Shown here one piece after another: positions 47,526 to 53,208 of a DNA stretch of 64,000 nucleotides. The notes beneath the pieces are model-generated. The model was not told the DNA's origin and did no database searches. It was given only the letters and a program-made list of their open reading frames with translations. Location: positions 105,368-169,367 of the forward strand of contig DATION010000002.1 in the NCBI GenBank assembly GCA_035473115.1, in the 5' to 3' direction. How positions within the stretch are numbered: the first letter of the stretch is position 1; the number at the start of each line of letters is the position of its first letter. The position numbers were made by a program, and so were the translations under genes. Source of the DNA: Candidatus Udaeobacter sp. (lineage in GTDB: Bacteria > Patescibacteriota > Patescibacteriia > Magasanikbacterales > GWA2-37-8).

Positions 47526-49760
47526 TTACTCTAAAGCTCTTAAAATCTTTTCTTTAATATCTACTGAAGTCATCCCAGCTAACTCATATACCTCAGCCAC
47601 ATTACCGGATTTTAAATAATGGTTTATACCCAAAGCTTTTTTAGAATAATCCGCTGGTAACATAAATGGATACAAAAATCCTGGCCAACCATTATGCAAA
47701 GTAATTACTAATTCCCTTTCTTCATCTGATAAAATACTTTTCGCTTTAGTTGGATTAGTTTTTTGTAAATCTTCAAATAATTCCGGGGAAGTAACAGCTA
47801 TAATTTTTATATCTAATCCTTGCTTTTCCAGTTCAGGCAAAACTTCTAAAGTATTTAACAAAATTTGCATACCGCAAATTGCTAAAACCGTCTTTTTGCC
47901 TTTACCAGAGAATTGTTTATAAACATAAGCGCCATTATTGGCTTCTATGGCCGCTGGCACTTCAGCACGCTTTATTACCGGCTGTTCCGGCCGGTAAAGA
48001 GACAGAATAATTGGCTCACCTTTTTCTAAAGCGCCAAACAGCATTTCTATAGTTTCATTGGCATCTGTTGGTTTATATACTTTTATTCCCGGCAAAGCAT
48101 TATAAAGAGACATCCAATACATTCCTTGGTGGGTTGGACCATCTTCGCCAGTTTCCGGGCCGTCGTGGGCAGCCAAAGCAATAAAAAAGCCTTTGGTTTC
48201 GGGATTAAGTTGATTACCAATTACCGCCAAGCGAATCGCATTGCCCATCATATTGGTAAAAACGGCAAAAGTACCAAAGACCGAAACTGGTTTGTATCCG
48301 CCCGGCAAAATATCTTGCGTCAGTCCGGCGCCCATCATGGCCATATTTTGTTCAGCAATGCCATAGCGAATACCGCGGCCCAGTGGATTATTTTTGGAAA
48401 TCAATCCATAAACTTCTTCGGCAGAATTGGTATAAACAGATTTAGCCAAATCTCCGGCTCCAGCATAAAAAAAGGCGGTCTGTTTCATATACCAAGCCAT
48501 CCAGGCTTGCACAGCTTTGCGAGTAGCTACTTTTTCGCCTTCGGCAAAAACTAATTCCGGCGGCAAAACTTTTGGCCGTTTTATAGCTAGAGGATCAACC
48601 ATTGGTCGGCCGCGCAAAGCTTTTTTCATTTTTTCTACCAAAATTGATTCTGGCACAATTTTCTGCGCGCCGACTTCTAATCTTTCCAAAATATATTTTT
48701 CATCTTCTGGATTAATTTGCGCCAAAACAGTTTGAATATCCGGCAATACTTTCCCCGGTTCGCCAGCAATATTAAAGCCTAATTTTTTCATTATATTTAC
48801 ATAATCATCGTGCTTGGCCAGAGTACTGTGGGCAGCGGCAGTATTTTCAGTCTTGCCATAACTTTTAGCTTTTAAAGTATGACAGATAACTACCGTCGGC
48901 GCGCCATTGGCAAACCCTTGCGCAGCCAACTGATAGGCATAAACCATTTCCAAAACATTATGCCCGTTGGTTTCTATAACATTCCAACCCAAACCCAGCC
49001 AATGATTAATATATGGCGAAGCCACAACTTCTTCTATTTCATCATCGATGCCAAAATGATTATAATCTAAACTGACAATTAAATTTTTTAAGCCGTTGGT
49101 AGCAATGATATTTCGCGCTTCATAGGTCATACCTTCTTCGCTTTCGGCATCGCCCATAAATACCCAAGTTTTGGTATCCAAGCCGCAAGACTGGTGTACC
49201 ATAGCCATTCCGCCAGCTACAGCAAACCCGTGCCCCAACGGGCCGGTAGTAAAATCAGAATATGGATATTGGGCTTCGGCATGGCCTTGCGGGCCATCAG
49301 CATGACGAAAACGAATCAGGTCTTCAGGCATGACTGCTTTTACTACTGCTTCGCCAAATTGGCGGCCAGCCCGTTTTAAAACTTCGTAATATAAGGCTTG
49401 TCCGGCAAAAAGCAGATCAGCGCAATGGCCTGAACTCCAAATTAATCTGTCTCGACCAGGATTTTTGGGGTTGGTTGGATCAAAGGCCATTACTCCACTT
49501 AGTGTCATGGCCAAAAATTGCTCCACCTTGCTGCTGCTGCCCGGATGACCGGATTGTCCGGCTTCGACAGCAGCAAAAATAAGGCCGCGAATAATTTTGG
49601 CTAGTTTGTCTAATCTAGGAACATCTATGCCGTCTATGGAAGCCAGATCTAAATCTTCGATATTTAAATACTGCCCGCTCTGGACAGAATATTGCAAAAG
49701 GTTTTTTTCTTTCTTTTTAAAATCTGCCATTCCTTTTTTGTCTAGGAGGTTGTAGGGCAT
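47526..49760 (-). CDS. tkt: Transketolase (long form, 744 aa)
   Basis: TPP-binding N-terminal domain (GHPGSS..), pyrimidine-binding domain and C-terminal domain. Confidence 0.85.
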   Translation of the reverse strand: MPYNLLDKKGMADFKKKEKNLLQYSVQSGQYLNIEDLDLASIDGIDVPRLDKLAKIIRGLIFAAVEAGQSGHPGSSSKVEQFLAMTLSGVMAFDPTNPKNPGRDRLIWSSGHCADLLFAGQALYYEVLKRAGRQFGEAVVKAVMPEDLIRFRHADGPQGHAEAQYPYSDFTTGPLGHGFAVAGGMAMVHQSCGLDTKTWVFMGDAESEEGMTYEARNIIATNGLKNLIVSLDYNHFGIDDEIEEVVASPYINHWLGLGWNVIETNGHNVLEMVYAYQLAAQGFANGAPTVVICHTLKAKSYGKTENTAAAHSTLAKHDDYVNIMKKLGFNIAGEPGKVLPDIQTVLAQINPEDEKYILERLEVGAQKIVPESILVEKMKKALRGRPMVDPLAIKRPKVLPPELVFAEGEKVATRKAVQAWMAWYMKQTAFFYAGAGDLAKSVYTNSAEEVYGLISKNNPLGRGIRYGIAEQNMAMMGAGLTQDILPGGYKPVSVFGTFAVFTNMMGNAIRLAVIGNQLNPETKGFFIALAAHDGPETGEDGPTHQGMYWMSLYNALPGIKVYKPTDANETIEMLFGALEKGEPIILSLYRPEQPVIKRAEVPAAIEANNGAYVYKQFSGKGKKTVLAICGMQILLNTLEVLPELEKQGLDIKIIAVTSPELFEDLQKTNPTKAKSILSDEERELVITLHNGWPGFLYPFMLPADYSKKALGINHYLKSGNVAEVYELAGMTSVDIKEKILRALE

Positions 49761-49780
49761 ACTGGAAATTGAGTTATGTA

Positions 49781-51145
49781 CTATATTTCAAACTCTCTAA
49801 AATATTTTCTAAATCTATGATTATTCATCTCCATTCTATGAAAATATTTATCCGAAAACCCATCTTTATTTGAATGTTTTAGCAGCACCATATAAGAATC
49901 ATTCATTCTTTCAAAAAAACGTATCAAAAAACTCATCTGCTCTTTTGTTAATTTTCCACTATCCACAGTTTCCATAAATCTTCTTTGCATTCGTTCTTGT
50001 AGCATAAACAACTCTTCAAGCATCATCGGATGAGGTCTTTCTTCATGAGAAAAATGTTCTATAAAGTGCAGAACTCGTTCCTGGTTTCTATTAAATTCAA
50101 TAAAAAAATCATCATCTAAATTTAACTGTTTAACAAGATGCTGTAACTCTTCGCCTAACATTCCTTGCTGCATGATAAACTCATGAAATAAAGGATGTTT
50201 AAAATCTCTTGAGTGTAAGATCTTATGAACAACATAATTTCTTTCTTCTAAAGATTTAACTCTTTTGACATCTTGGAGGATTTTTTTATCAACTATTTGT
50301 TTGTAATACTCACCAGCAAGTTCTAAAAATTTTTCTGGGTCATACATATGAAAATCTACACCCGCCTTATCTTGAATTTCTTTTTTTAATTCATGCCTAG
50401 GCCCTATAACAGTTCCAGATTGTATCCACCACCAATCTTCTTTTTTATCTCTAGTAATAAAAATTATCGGTTTTTTTAACTCATTGGCCTTATCAATAAT
50501 TTGGTACCATAAAATCAAATCACCATATTCACGTTCATTATCTTTTGATGCATCTTTATAACCAGGAGGAACGTCATTTGAATATCTTTCTTTTCCTTCT
50601 TTATATATTTCGTCAAGTTTTTCCTTAAGGTATTCTTCACCAATACTATCTTTAAAAATCTTATTTAATTCACCTAAAATATTATCTTTATTAACCCAAT
50701 CTGGATGAGATTTTTCATTTTTATTAATACTGAGAGTAATCTTTTTTAAACAGCTATCTAATTCATTGCTAATTTCTTTAAGGTCTAAAAATGGATGTTC
50801 CTTGTGATACTTATCCTCAATTTTCTTTTGAGCATCCTTAATAGAGGTGTCTAAAATAGACCTTATTTTAGAGTAAGAATTTTTTAAATCAGCTATTTGA
50901 ATTATTCTTCTTTTATGAAACTCTAAGCCCACTTGATGCGGGATCCATATTCTATTTTCATCTTTAATTTTTTTAAGAATACCAATATATTTATCCGAGG
51001 TAGTATTGTTATACCTGTACAAGTCAAGCAAAACATTCGTGTCAAACACAAATACACACTCCTGCCATATTTTTTTTATTTCAGCATCAGAATACTTATA
51101 AAATTCTTTAAACTTATTCTTCATACGGCTTTTCATTAATAACAT
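49781..51145 (-). CDS. Orphan protein with an N-terminal PIN-like nuclease domain and a roughly 280-aa helical C-terminal region
   Basis: The VFVFDTNVLLDLYRY start is typical of PIN domains. Later ...IFITRD... provides further acidic residues. The C-terminal half is not recognisable. Confidence 0.5.
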   Translation of the reverse strand: MLLMKSRMKNKFKEFYKYSDAEIKKIWQECVFVFDTNVLLDLYRYNNTTSDKYIGILKKIKDENRIWIPHQVGLEFHKRRIIQIADLKNSYSKIRSILDTSIKDAQKKIEDKYHKEHPFLDLKEISNELDSCLKKITLSINKNEKSHPDWVNKDNILGELNKIFKDSIGEEYLKEKLDEIYKEGKERYSNDVPPGYKDASKDNEREYGDLILWYQIIDKANELKKPIIFITRDKKEDWWWIQSGTVIGPRHELKKEIQDKAGVDFHMYDPEKFLELAGEYYKQIVDKKILQDVKRVKSLEERNYVVHKILHSRDFKHPLFHEFIMQQGMLGEELQHLVKQLNLDDDFFIEFNRNQERVLHFIEHFSHEERPHPMMLEELFMLQERMQRRFMETVDSGKLTKEQMSFLIRFFERMNDSYMVLLKHSNKDGFSDKYFHRMEMNNHRFRKYFREFEI

Positions 51146-51240
51146 ACTTACATTATACCAATTTCCCTACACCTAAACAAGTTTCCTCTATCTCAAAATA
51201 AATGCTACAATTTAAATAGCTTAATTTTAAATAAAAAAAT

Positions 51241-51588
51241 ATGGACCAACAAAACCCAACTACCCAATCAGCAACACCCCAACCACAATCACCAAAACAC
51301 AACACTTTGATGGCTGTAGTAGCTTATCTTTTGTTTTTTATTCCCCTGCTTACCGATGCCAAAAATGATCCTTTTGTTAAATTTCATGTAAAGCAAGGAT
51401 TAGTATTTTTTATTTCTTGCTTGGCTGCCGCCATAATTATTCGGCTGCCAATCATCGGTTGGCTCTTGATGTTCCCAATAAATATTTTTCTTTTTGTAAT
51501 TTGGCTAATTGGGATTTTGAACGCTCTAAGCGGTAAACAAAAACTGCTCCCAGTGATCGGCAAGTACGGAGAGCAGTTTGAGTTATAA
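51241..51588 (+). CDS. DUF4870-like small membrane protein
   Basis: Pro/Gln-rich N-terminus, then the DPFVKFHVKQGLVF motif typical of DUF4870, plus two transmembrane helices. Confidence 0.5.
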   Translation: MDQQNPTTQSATPQPQSPKHNTLMAVVAYLLFFIPLLTDAKNDPFVKFHVKQGLVFFISCLAAAIIIRLPIIGWLLMFPINIFLFVIWLIGILNALSGKQKLLPVIGKYGEQFEL

Positions 51589-51598
51589 ACTTCTTTTT

Positions 51599-52030
51599 TT
51601 ATTTAATTGCTTGTTGAAGTGCTTGTTCTAATTTTTGCGGCTCATCGGTGCCAATCCGGTATATTTTTCCATTCTTCATAATAATTTCTACGGCATCAAA
51701 ACCGGAAACATTAAAAATCCAGGTTGTTGGATTTAATTTTAATCTTATCCCCCAGCCATAATACCATTTATTTTTTACCGCTTTAGCTGTTGCTATTTCT
51801 TTAAGAACAAATTTTTTGCTAAATAAACCAAAGGCTATATGAAGATGACTGTCATCTATTGTTACAGTAAGCGAAATAAACGAAACTAAAATTAGCAAAA
51901 CAATAAGCATCACGCTAGTAAATCCCGAAAAATCAAAGGCTCTTTGTAGTAAAAAAAATAGATAAAGCGCTGCTATGCCAATGGCGGCAAACAATATTAC
52001 CTTTCCGATCTGGGTGTGCTTGTAGAGCAT
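51599..52030 (-). CDS. Hypothetical membrane protein (two N-terminal transmembrane helices plus a small soluble domain)
   Basis: Hydrophobic N-terminal segments. No family recognised. Confidence 0.4.
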   Translation of the reverse strand: MLYKHTQIGKVILFAAIGIAALYLFFLLQRAFDFSGFTSVMLIVLLILVSFISLTVTIDDSHLHIAFGLFSKKFVLKEIATAKAVKNKWYYGWGIRLKLNPTTWIFNVSGFDAVEIIMKNGKIYRIGTDEPQKLEQALQQAIK

Positions 52031-52107
52031 AAAAAAATTAGATAAATAACTATATTATTATACCAATTTTGGCTTTTTAAGACAAACAAATTCTCTACCC
52101 TCGAGGC

Positions 52108-52136
52108 TTTACAAAAAGGCCTTTTTGTGGTAGACT
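52108..52136 (+). promoter_or_regulatory. Putative promoter of GC-rich cassette 3 (TTTACA-N17-TAGACT)
   Basis: Sequence match. A GGAGGG Shine-Dalgarno site lies 5 nt before the ATG at 52183. Confidence 0.35.
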
Positions 52137-52182
52137 ATTCGCACTCTGAACAACAAACCAAACCAACCTGCGGAGGGCTAGC

Positions 52183-52479
52183 ATGAGCCAAAATCTTGAT
52201 CTGGGCGTACGCCTCGATCTTGCGGCCATGCTTTCCCAGCGCGCCGCAACAAACGATCCCAAGAGCCGAATCAGCTCAAGGGAGATAGCTCGCGAAGAAG
52301 CTCGCGAGTATGACAAATTGAGGAATTCTGCAGAACGAGCCAGCATGGATCTTTATGACAGCCAGGCAACGTTTGCAGATCCGGAACATCGAGAACTATT
52401 GAGAAAAAAACAAAGGGCAGACTATGCCTTAGACGTTTTTCTCAGAAACCTAATCTCGAAAAAGCGGCCTGGTAAATAG
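52183..52479 (+). CDS. GC-rich orphan small ORF 3 (98 aa, charged, predicted helical)
   Basis: About 52 % GC. Strong Shine-Dalgarno site and own promoter. It is followed by hairpins and a terminator. No recognised family. Confidence 0.4.
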   Translation: MSQNLDLGVRLDLAAMLSQRAATNDPKSRISSREIAREEAREYDKLRNSAERASMDLYDSQATFADPEHRELLRKKQRADYALDVFLRNLISKKRPGK

Positions 52480-52505
52480 CGAGAGCAATCTCGCTACCGT
52501 CGGCG

Positions 52506-52550
52506 GCCCGTTGCCTGGAGACCAAAATCCAGCACGGGCCTTTGTTATTT
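52506..52550 (+). terminator. Hairpin terminator of cassette 3
   Basis: GGCCCGT...ACGGGCC stem (7 bp) followed by TTTGTTATTT. An additional AGCGAG-AGCAAT-CTCGCT hairpin lies at 52478-52495. Confidence 0.5.
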
Positions 52551-52569
52551 ATAAACACAACAGTTTTGC

Positions 52570-53205
52570 TCAATCTCCAATTTTATAAAGGATGTTATTT
52601 TGTATATAAACCGGCATTTCCCAATCCAAATGATCGGTCCATGGATTATAGATCCATTTTTCTAAATCTTTATTTATTCTAACAATTCTAGCTGGTTCTC
52701 CAAATGCGTTCCGCACTTTTTCAACGCTCCAACCGCGCAAATCATTTCCAACATGACCAATTAAACTACCTCTCCTGTCTGTTTGCATTTTGATTTGTAT
52801 TTTTTGACTAAGATTTTCATAATTTTTACCAAAAGCATAAAAATCTTTTTCCCAAAGATAAACCGTTCTCCCAGCCGTTATCGTAGCTCCAGGCACAAAC
52901 GGATCTTCTCCTAAATCAAATCTAATCTCTCTTTTATAGGGAGGAGCAATAAATAAAAAAATAAAAACAAAAAATAAAATAATCGAAAAAATAATATATT
53001 TCCCAATTATTTTAATATCTAATACCTTCAAAACTGCTAATCTAAACCAATATATCCAATTTAAAAGTATAGACAAAATAAATACAATAAAATTAAATTT
53101 CCAGTTATAGCCTTCTTTAGCCGCAGCAAAAGAAGCAATTAAAAAGCAAGCTCCTATGAAAGTTATTATTAATGATGGTAAAAAATATAGATATTTCTTA
53201 TTCAT
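52570..53205 (-). CDS. Hypothetical membrane protein
   Basis: Three N-terminal transmembrane helices and a C-terminal soluble domain. No family recognised. Confidence 0.4.
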   Translation of the reverse strand: MNKKYLYFLPSLIITFIGACFLIASFAAAKEGYNWKFNFIVFILSILLNWIYWFRLAVLKVLDIKIIGKYIIFSIILFFVFIFLFIAPPYKREIRFDLGEDPFVPGATITAGRTVYLWEKDFYAFGKNYENLSQKIQIKMQTDRRGSLIGHVGNDLRGWSVEKVRNAFGEPARIVRINKDLEKWIYNPWTDHLDWEMPVYIQNNILYKIGD

Positions 53206-53208
53206 ACT

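What the first reader, a model, noticed from the sequence alone, without database searches (positions are those of the whole stretch)
49781..51145. Orphan 454-aa protein with an N-terminal PIN-like domain and a large unknown C-terminal domain
VFVFDTNVLLDLYRY is a classic PIN-domain opening with its first catalytic Asp. Later ...IFITRD... provides more acidic residues. The remaining roughly 280 aa are helical and Glu/Lys/His/Phe-rich with no recognisable family. The gene stands alone, 20 nt upstream of tkt. Large PIN-domain singletons are frequent abortive-infection or toxin proteins.
Basis: partly seen in the sequence, partly recalled or inferred. Interest (0 to 1): 0.5.

Follow-up and report, generated by a model that had tools for sequence, protein, structure and literature searches.

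The report
Stand-alone PIN_8 nuclease gene cassette
This gene is a horizontally acquired, single-gene copy of a widespread but functionally untested nuclease family (Pfam PIN_8) whose distribution points to phage or plasmid defence, so it is neither an orphan nor a housekeeping gene.

Summary
The ORF is real (49781-51145, minus strand; probable start at M8, giving 447 aa). It is not an orphan. It matches Pfam PIN_8 (PF18476) over the full model (E=1e-68) and has over 700 homologs, in at least 584 species genomes, 70 plasmids and 113 viral contigs.

All five PIN acidic residues are invariant. An AlphaFold model (pLDDT 88) shows a PIN core split by a 120-residue helical insert, followed by a six-helix C-terminal bundle. 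The bundle is family-specific and diverges fast.

The closest relatives keep the MamF–tkt synteny without this gene. The window-specific segment (about 49770-51199) is just the gene plus a promoter-like extended −10.

Close homologs sit at a different site in each genome. No conserved antitoxin-like neighbour exists. Immediate neighbours elsewhere often include restriction, Avs, Dnd, HerA and integrase genes.

The family has no experimental characterisation. DefensePredictor (Science 2026) lists an E. coli PIN_8 protein as a predicted, untested defence gene. The same study validated the sister family PIN_12 (DS-5) and an analogous one-protein split-PIN system (DS-3).

Best reading: a self-contained, auto-inhibited immune or abortive-infection nuclease. 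This is a new member of a known, uncharacterised family, of moderate interest.

The parts
49781..51145 (-). Full ORF from the first ATG (454 aa plus stop). The likely true CDS is 49781-51124 (447 aa, starting at M8).
   Evidence: ORF; all homologs and the 100%-identical P0001 start at the M8 position; codon check
50387..51055 (-). PIN_8 (PF18476) PIN-like nuclease domain, ORF residues 31-253
50579..50938 (-). Long helical insertion between PIN strands 2 and 3 (ORF residues about 70-189). It carries the invariant HP, HPDW and PPGY motifs.
   Evidence: helices 63-182 in M8 numbering; invariant H117/P118, H147/P148, P193-Y196
51041..51043 (-). Catalytic Asp D35 (DTN motif)
   Evidence: invariant in 74 sequences
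50921..50923 (-). Catalytic Glu E75 (QVGLEF motif)
   Evidence: invariant in the clade, nearly invariant in the family
50519..50521 (-). Catalytic Asp D209 (YGD motif)
50435..50449 (-). Catalytic Asp D233 and Asp D237 (TRDKKEDWWW motif)
49796..50287 (-). C-terminal six-helix bundle (ORF residues about 287-450). It is specific to the family, diverges fast, and is the proposed regulatory or sensor module.
   Evidence: helices, pLDDT about 80-90; only 7 single-sequence hits in 1.84e9 proteins; hhalign 95% to the main family C-terminus; 44% identity against 73% in the PIN core
51152..51180 (-). Promoter-like element: TTGTTT, 17 nt, then an extended -10 TGGTATAAT ending 6 nt before the first ATG
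   Evidence: Read directly from the sequence. The consensus scanner did not list it because the -35 matches only 3 of 6. This is an inference, not shown to be functional.
49770..51199 (.). Window-specific segment (about 1.43 kb) that is absent from the syntenic MamF-tkt spacer of the closest relatives. It is the inserted single-gene cassette.
   Evidence: relatives lack the gene; homology breakpoints near 51200 and 49761-49769; no PIN remnants

Best explanation
The gene encodes an intact member of the PIN_8 family (PF18476). This is a VapC-group, metal-dependent PIN nuclease whose core is interrupted by a long helical insert and followed by a fast-evolving helical bundle.

It was acquired horizontally as a single-gene cassette of about 1.4 kb with its own promoter. 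The cassette sits between the MamF/MmsF-like gene and tkt in a Patescibacteria genome.

The most likely function is a self-contained immune or abortive-infection module. The PIN active site (D35, E75, D209, D233, D237) would be the effector, most probably cleaving RNA as VapC-type PINs do. The helical insert and/or the C-terminal bundle would keep it inactive until an infection-derived cue is sensed.

Shown: family membership, catalytic residue conservation, fold, insertion and lack of synteny, absence of a conserved partner, and mobile or defence-rich contexts elsewhere.

Inferred: the defence role, the RNA substrate, and auto-inhibition or sensing by the C-terminal domain.
For: Family and fold:
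- Membership and intact catalytic set.

Accessory, transferred gene:
- The closest relatives keep MurB-S30AE-sulfatase-...-MamF-tkt-RlmN-ThiI but lack the gene and any remnant of it.
- GC is 28.8% against 36.6 +/- 3.4%.
- Seven close homologs lie in seven different contexts.
- A Pacearchaeota archaeon carries the same clade.

Self-contained module:
- No conserved upstream or downstream ORF in 85 loci, and no universal neighbour.
- It is one of very few cargo genes on a 4.2 kb Psychrobacter plasmid and a 5.2 kb Klebsiella plasmid.

Conflict context:
- The +/-1 neighbours in 80 genomes include type I, II and IV restriction, Avs4, DndF, RmrA, NsnA, PbeA, PD-T4-2, HerA/mad8, integrases and transposases.
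- L004 and L006 islands carry GmrSD, NYN and Schlafen/AlbA genes.
- One cultured phage and 113 IMG/VR contigs carry relatives.

Divergence pattern:
- Conserved effector against a rapidly diverging C-terminus: 73% vs 44% identity; homologous only at profile level.

Literature (PMC13092281):
- E. coli PIN_8 protein WP_114499597.1 is a 'predicted novel defense gene'.
- The one-protein split-PIN DS-3 and the PIN_12-based DS-5 are validated, with catalytic mutants losing defence.
- The authors suggest that DS-3, which has no antitoxin, is auto-inhibited.
Against: - No PIN_8 member has been tested experimentally in any paper I could read. PF18476 appears in 0 main texts, and Matelska 2017 lists it as 'Function unknown'.
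- There are no PADLOC hits.
- In this window the gene is not in a defence island. Its flanks are housekeeping genes.
- The low GC comes mainly from codon position 2, i.e. amino-acid composition.
- There is no positional bias in prophage contigs.
- DS-3 is not homologous (hhalign 0.6%), and DS-5 needs a partner protein that is absent here.
- Substrate and trigger are unknown. The methylase and HerA-NurA couplings in some clades hint at DNA-related roles instead.
- The neighbour enrichment was not measured against a matched control.
Confidence: 0.55

Rival explanations
1. It is the toxin of an unrecognised toxin-antitoxin pair. The antitoxin would be a small unannotated peptide or an antisense or structured RNA, and the main role would be addiction or stabilisation of mobile DNA rather than immunity.
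For: - It is a VapC-group PIN.
- Small ORFs lie just upstream on two tiny plasmids: 65 aa and 91 aa.
- A 50-aa ORF lies 7 nt upstream in the window.
- The family occurs on 70 plasmids.
Against: - The upstream and downstream small ORFs form no conserved family across 85 loci.
- The window's 50-aa ORF overlaps the divergent MamF gene start and looks spurious.
- The cassette defined by the synteny breakpoints holds only this gene.
- The protein is three times the size of VapC and has extra domains that could supply regulation in cis.
Confidence: 0.15
2. It is the nuclease arm of a restriction-modification-like system that partners with a DNA methyltransferase. That would make it a PIN-fold restriction enzyme. 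The window copy would rely on a methylase encoded elsewhere in the genome.
For: - Close homologs P0009 and P0007 are translationally coupled to an EcoRI-type methylase, with a 3-nt gap and a 4-nt overlap.
- A third CPR locus (L016) has the methylase 1.1 kb upstream.
- Six Bacteroidota loci have PIN_8-HerA-NurA-N6/N4 methylase operons.
- The variable C-terminus could act as a specificity domain.
Against: - Only about 3 of about 82 loci have an adjacent EcoRI-type methylase.
- There is none in the 64 kb window.
- A 4.2 kb plasmid carries PIN_8 with no methylase.
- The methylase and PIN_8 phylogenies disagree: L004 vs L016 are 78% identical for the methylase but 41% for PIN_8.
- VapC-group PINs are RNases. 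No DNA-binding domain was detected.
Confidence: 0.08
3. It is a housekeeping RNA-processing PIN nuclease that is co-transcribed with tkt.
For: There is a 20-nt gap to tkt and no terminator-like site between the two genes. Many PIN proteins process rRNA or tRNA.
Against: - The gene is absent from the closest relatives at the same locus.
- Each homolog has a different context.
- The distribution is sporadic across bacteria, archaea, plasmids and phages.
- It is not NYN, YacP, Fcf1 or Nob1 by Pfam or NCBIfam.
Confidence: 0.03

Closest known systems
Pfam PF18476 PIN_8 (cluster 'PIN_8' of Matelska, Steczkiewicz & Ginalski 2017, VapC structural group)
   Same: Full-length HMM match, 4-5 conserved acidic residues, found in bacteria, archaea and viruses, about 410-450 aa proteins.
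   Different: Nothing at family level. The window protein belongs to a small CPR/DPANN-associated sub-clade with a longer, divergent C-terminal bundle. The family's function is listed as unknown.
DS-5 of DefensePredictor (PIN_12 / PF16289 protein WP_021513009.1 plus a DUF5830/AcrIF4-like partner)
   Same: Sister PIN family. The window protein scores 31.9 bits on PIN_12, and the profiles align collinearly over the DTN motif, the P..V..EF motif and the helical insert. The PIN catalytic residues of DS-5 are required for phage defence.
   Different: DS-5 is a two-gene system that needs its partner, and no such partner is present here. The C-terminal region differs (alpha/beta in DUF4935/PIN_12 against an all-helical bundle here).
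DS-3 of DefensePredictor (WP_022645725.1, working id 'PIN8')
   Same: [quoted passage not shown] Its catalytic residues are needed for defence, and auto-inhibition was proposed.
   Different: Not detectably homologous: no PF18476 hit and hhalign probability 0.6%. The working id does not refer to Pfam PIN_8.
VapC toxins of VapBC type II toxin-antitoxin systems
   Different: VapC proteins are about 130-150 aa with an adjacent VapB antitoxin gene. This protein is 447 aa with an insert and a C-terminal domain, and it has no conserved partner.
HEC-03 (ABC ATPase + PIN) of Payne et al. 2024
   Same: A PIN effector in a validated defence system.
   Different: HEC-03 is a two-gene system with an ABC ATPase sensor. 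The window protein has no PADLOC hit and no ATPase neighbour.

Membership tests
Pfam PIN_8 (PF18476) | HMM score above the curated gathering threshold, covering the whole model | tested here: met
   232 bits against a cutoff of 26.1; model positions 1-227 of 227; residues 31-253
Pfam PIN_8 (PF18476) | 4-5 conserved acidic active-site residues (Matelska 2017) | tested here: met
   D35, E75, D209, D233 and D237 are invariant or nearly invariant in 14 and 74 sequences
Pfam PIN_8 (PF18476) | PIN (VapC-group) fold | tested here: met
VapBC type II toxin-antitoxin (VapC toxin) | Adjacent, usually overlapping, small antitoxin gene conserved with the toxin | tested here: not met
   No conserved small ORF upstream or downstream in 85 loci. 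The upstream gene in the window is a divergently transcribed membrane protein.
VapBC type II toxin-antitoxin (VapC toxin) | Compact single-domain PIN protein of about 130-150 aa | tested here: not met
   447 aa with a 120-residue insert and a bundle of about 170 residues
VapBC type II toxin-antitoxin (VapC toxin) | Site-specific tRNA or rRNA cleavage | not testable with these tools
   Needs biochemistry
DS-5 / PIN_12 (PF16289) two-gene defence system | PF16289 match above the gathering threshold | tested here: inconclusive
   31.9 bits against a cutoff of 32.0, E=2e-7; hhalign to the DS-5 protein gives E=0.004, probability 8.6%
DS-5 / PIN_12 (PF16289) two-gene defence system | Upstream partner gene (DUF5830 / AcrIF4-like) required for defence | tested here: not met
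   No same-strand upstream gene in the window. The cassette contains one gene.
DS-3 one-protein split-PIN system | Sequence homology to WP_022645725.1 | tested here: not met
   The Pfam scan of DS-3 shows no PIN_8; hhalign probability 0.6%
NYN / YacP-type housekeeping PIN nucleases | NYN/LabA family match and conserved synteny | tested here: not met
   No NYN hit. The gene is absent at the syntenic site in relatives.
Type II restriction-modification (nuclease subunit) | Cognate DNA methyltransferase encoded next to the nuclease | tested here: not met
   No methylase homolog in the 64 kb window. One is present next to only 2-3 homologs.
Catalogued anti-phage systems (PADLOC-DB v2.0.0) | Match to any defence-protein model | tested here: not met
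   0 hits at E<=1
Anti-phage defence gene (functional class) | Protection against phage on heterologous expression, dependent on catalytic residues | not testable with these tools
   Only a machine-learning prediction exists for the E. coli member WP_114499597.1

The most novel reading that the evidence does not exclude
PIN_8 proteins would be a large immune family that no defence catalogue currently lists. They would be self-contained sensor-effector nucleases, present in at least 584 species including CPR bacteria and DPANN archaea.

The fast-evolving helical C-terminus would recognise invader cues. In some lineages the family would have been repeatedly wired to DNA methyltransferases (EcoRI-type in CPR; HerA-NurA-methylase operons in Bacteroidota). 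That would create a PIN-fold, modification-linked system for telling self from non-self, which is a nuclease fold not known among restriction enzymes.
Probability: 0.12. Interest if true: 0.7.

Novelty: new member of a known kind. Interest (0 to 1): 0.38.

Why it matters
PIN_8 is a large family. It has hundreds of species, plasmids and prophages, and it crosses the bacteria-archaea boundary, yet it has no assigned function.

This case adds a clean natural experiment. A 1.4 kb single-gene cassette sits between conserved housekeeping genes of a reduced Patescibacteria genome. This indicates that the gene is a self-sufficient mobile unit.

If the defence reading is right, it would add a one-protein nuclease system to the sparse known immune repertoire of CPR and DPANN organisms. 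It would also give a compact sensor-effector scaffold for mechanistic study.

The methylase-coupled and HerA-NurA-coupled variants are concrete leads for new system types.

Tried and rejected
- PADLOC and NCBIfam scans of the protein found nothing.
- afdb50 was unavailable.
- DS-3, whose working id is 'PIN8', looked like a direct match. I rejected it after a Pfam scan and hhalign.
- HEC-03 (Payne 2024) has a different architecture. The integron paper has no mention of PIN. Brenes & Laub 2025 is not held, so its validated PIN system could not be compared.
- No conserved small-ORF partner was found.
- No flanking direct or inverted repeats or other insertion scar were found.
- Prophage-end ('moron') position bias is not significant: 12 of 46 against about 9 expected.
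- A DNA search of E. coli complete genomes with a Klebsiella plasmid member gave no match.
- The C-terminus is not a clade-specific novel domain. Although phmmer found only 7 hits, a profile comparison shows it is a divergent form of the family-wide C-terminus.
- Compositional evidence for transfer is weaker than it first looked, because the effect is mainly in GC2.

Full report
**Observation**

The stop codon lies 20 nt before the start of a 744-aa transketolase-like gene (47526..49760).

All 13 close homologs, and the 100%-identical database entry P0001 (447 aa), start at the position of M8 (MKNKFKEFY). The true CDS is therefore probably 49781..51124.

**Identity**

The protein matches Pfam PIN_8 (PF18476) at E=1.1e-68, covering the whole 227-position model (residues 31-253). 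It also scores just under threshold on the sister family PIN_12 / ex-DUF4935 (31.9 against 32.0 bits).

It has no PADLOC hit and no NCBIfam hit. It matches an unknown-function PHROG, phrog_9788, at E=7e-63.

Matelska et al. 2017 (PMC5499597) defined PIN_8 as a VapC-group PIN-like cluster. They described 458 proteins from bacteria, archaea and one dsDNA virus, with 4-5 conserved acidic residues and 'Function unknown'. PF18476 appears in the main text of no paper in the library.

The protein is therefore not an orphan:
- 718 homologs at E<=1e-3;
- relatives in at least 584 of the GTDB species-representative genomes, from Patescibacteria, Bacillota, Bacteroidota, Cyanobacteria, Actinomycetota, Pseudomonadota and several archaea;
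- 70 plasmids;
- one cultured Clostridium phage;
- 113 IMG/VR contigs.

**Anatomy**

D35 (DTN), E75 (QVGLEF), D209 (YGD), D233 and D237 (TRDKKEDWWW) are invariant or nearly so in alignments of 14 and 74 sequences. The enzyme therefore looks catalytically intact.

An AlphaFold2 model built on 74 sequences has mean pLDDT 87.8 and pTM 0.68. It shows three parts:
- a PIN sheet;
- a helical insertion of about 120 residues between strands 2 and 3, carrying the invariant HP, HPDW and PPGY motifs;
- a C-terminal bundle of six long helices.

The C-terminal bundle alone finds only 7 proteins among 1.84 billion representatives by phmmer. However, a profile comparison shows it is homologous to the C-terminus of the main branch of the family (hhalign 95%, E=3e-8, 141 columns). 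A Flavobacteria branch carries something unrelated.

Within the window's clade, mean pairwise identity is 73% in the PIN core, 62% in the insert and 44% in the bundle.

**Genomic status**

The genome is a Patescibacteria MAG, with nearest tkt relatives in Magasanikbacteria and Parcubacteria.

In relatives whose tkt is 81-84% identical, the order ATP-grasp–MurB–S30AE–sulfatase–…–MamF/MmsF–tkt–RlmN–ThiI is conserved. The PIN_8 gene is absent, and a small unrelated ORF of 101-116 aa occupies the slot.

Homology with those relatives breaks at about 51200 and resumes at about 49761-49769. No PIN_8 remnant exists in them. The window-specific segment is thus about 1.43 kb, which is the gene plus about 55 nt upstream.

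That upstream stretch contains TTGTTT, 17 nt, then TGGTATAAT, ending 6 nt before the first ATG (read from the sequence). No terminator-like site separates the gene from tkt. No flanking repeats were found.

The gene has the second-lowest GC of 48 genes (28.8% against 36.6 ± 3.4%). This comes mostly from codon position 2, so it is only suggestive of transfer.

Seven close homologs (52-69% identity) lie in seven different neighbourhoods. These are tkt, EF-G with PRiA4_ORF3, an EcoRI-type methylase with GmrSD (twice), a radical-SAM gene, Fic with proC, and AHSA1. A Pacearchaeota archaeon carries the same clade.

**Partners**

Clustering the neighbours of 82 non-redundant loci finds no universal partner. 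No conserved small ORF lies upstream or downstream. This argues against a VapB-type antitoxin.

On a 4.2 kb Psychrobacter plasmid the only genes are RepM, a 65-aa ORF, the PIN_8 protein and MobV. A 5.2 kb ColE1-type Klebsiella plasmid is similar.

Clade-specific couplings do exist.
- In two CPR homologs an EcoRI-type methylase is translationally coupled upstream, and a third has it 1.1 kb upstream. The methylase and PIN_8 trees disagree: 78% against 41% identity for L004 and L016.
- Six Bacteroidota loci carry PIN_8–HerA–NurA–N6/N4-methylase operons. Their HerA matches PADLOC HerA and MADS mad8 models.

The window has no methylase related to these.

Among 148 immediate neighbours there are strong hits to type I, II and IV restriction, Avs4, DndF, RmrA, NsnA, PbeA and PD-T4-2, and to integrases and transposases. 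No matched control was run.

**Literature**

DefensePredictor (Science 2026, PMC13092281) validated 42 new E. coli systems.
[quoted passage not shown] Its catalytic mutants lose defence, and the authors propose auto-inhibition.
- DS-3's lab label is 'PIN8', but it is not PF18476.
- DS-5 uses a PIN_12 protein plus a partner. The PIN_8 profile aligns collinearly but weakly with it.
- The supplementary tables list a genuine E. coli PIN_8 protein (WP_114499597.1, PF18476 at 99.9%) as a 'predicted novel defense gene', with log-odds of about 6.8-7.6. It is not among the cloned systems.

HEC-03 of Payne et al. is an ABC ATPase plus PIN pair and has a different architecture. Brenes & Laub 2025 could not be read.

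**Interpretation**

The shown facts are these:
- an intact PIN_8 nuclease;
- a single-gene insertion with its own promoter-like signal;
- no partner;
- a sporadic cross-domain, plasmid and prophage distribution;
- defence-rich neighbourhoods elsewhere;
- a conserved effector with a fast-diverging C-terminus.

They best fit a self-contained immune or abortive-infection nuclease that is held inactive by its accessory helical modules until infection. I put this at about 0.55.

Rivals:
- a toxin with an unrecognised antitoxin (0.15);
- a methylase-linked restriction-like nuclease (0.08);
- a housekeeping RNA-processing enzyme (0.03).

The substrate (RNA, by analogy with VapC-group PINs) and the trigger are inferred, not shown.

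**Verdict**

This is a new member of a known but uncharacterised family, of moderate interest (0.38). The interest lies mainly in the testable defence hypothesis and in the methylase- and HerA-NurA-coupled variants.

Noticed in passing
window 52040-52560: A GC-rich patch (about 45% against about 30-36% around it). Its minus-strand RNA fold is far more stable than shuffled controls (-187 against -152 +/- 5.9 kcal/mol, z = -5.9). It has no Rfam match even at E<=1 and no similarity in the relatives' loci. It overlaps two unannotated ORFs (98 aa on the plus strand, 83 aa on the minus strand). It could be a novel structured RNA or a foreign GC-rich ORF.
   Followed up: partly
L024 10001-15769 (also L036, L044, L049, L063, L082): Six Bacteroidota genomes carry an operon made of a short PIN_8 protein (about 345-370 aa), then HerA/DUF87 (about 737 aa, matching PADLOC HerA and MADS mad8 models), then NurA (about 460 aa), then an N6/N4 DNA methylase (about 374 aa). 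This looks like an undescribed multi-gene system built around PIN_8.
   Followed up: partly
L004 6798-9359; L006 3220-5609; L016 7640-11278: An EcoRI-type adenine methylase lies immediately upstream of PIN_8 (3-nt gap; 4-nt overlap; 1.1 kb gap) in three CPR genomes. These sit in islands with GmrSD, NYN, T5orf172 and Schlafen/AlbA genes. Methylase and PIN_8 divergence disagree (78% against 41% for L004 and L016), which suggests repeated juxtaposition.
   Followed up: partly
window 49770-53208 compared with L094-L096: The stretch between the sulfatase gene and tkt is a variable spot in this lineage. Each relative carries different small or accessory genes there (LRR proteins, an aminotransferase, unknown ORFs). 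The window has three unannotated ORFs (143, 98 and 211 aa) plus the PIN_8 cassette.
   Followed up: partly
L013 10001-11377: A Pacearchaeota (DPANN archaeon) MAG carries a full-length PIN_8 protein of the same C-terminal type as the window's Patescibacteria clade. This suggests transfer between CPR bacteria and DPANN archaea.
   Followed up: no
L026 455-2737; L088 3155-4879: Some family members are much longer: 760 aa in a Methanoregula MAG and 574 aa on Klebsiella plasmid pC51_006. They therefore carry extra C-terminal modules that were not examined.
   Followed up: no
window 47526-49760 (tkt) and its database twin P0127: The identical transketolase-like protein is deposited on a 234 kb MAG contig labelled 'Candidatus Udaeobacter sp.' (Verrucomicrobiota). 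All near relatives are Magasanikbacteria, Parcubacteria or Patescibacteria, so the label is probably a binning or taxonomy error.
   Followed up: no
window 1-64000: No tRNA or tmRNA gene and no Rfam family at gathering threshold was found in the whole 64 kb window.
   Followed up: yes
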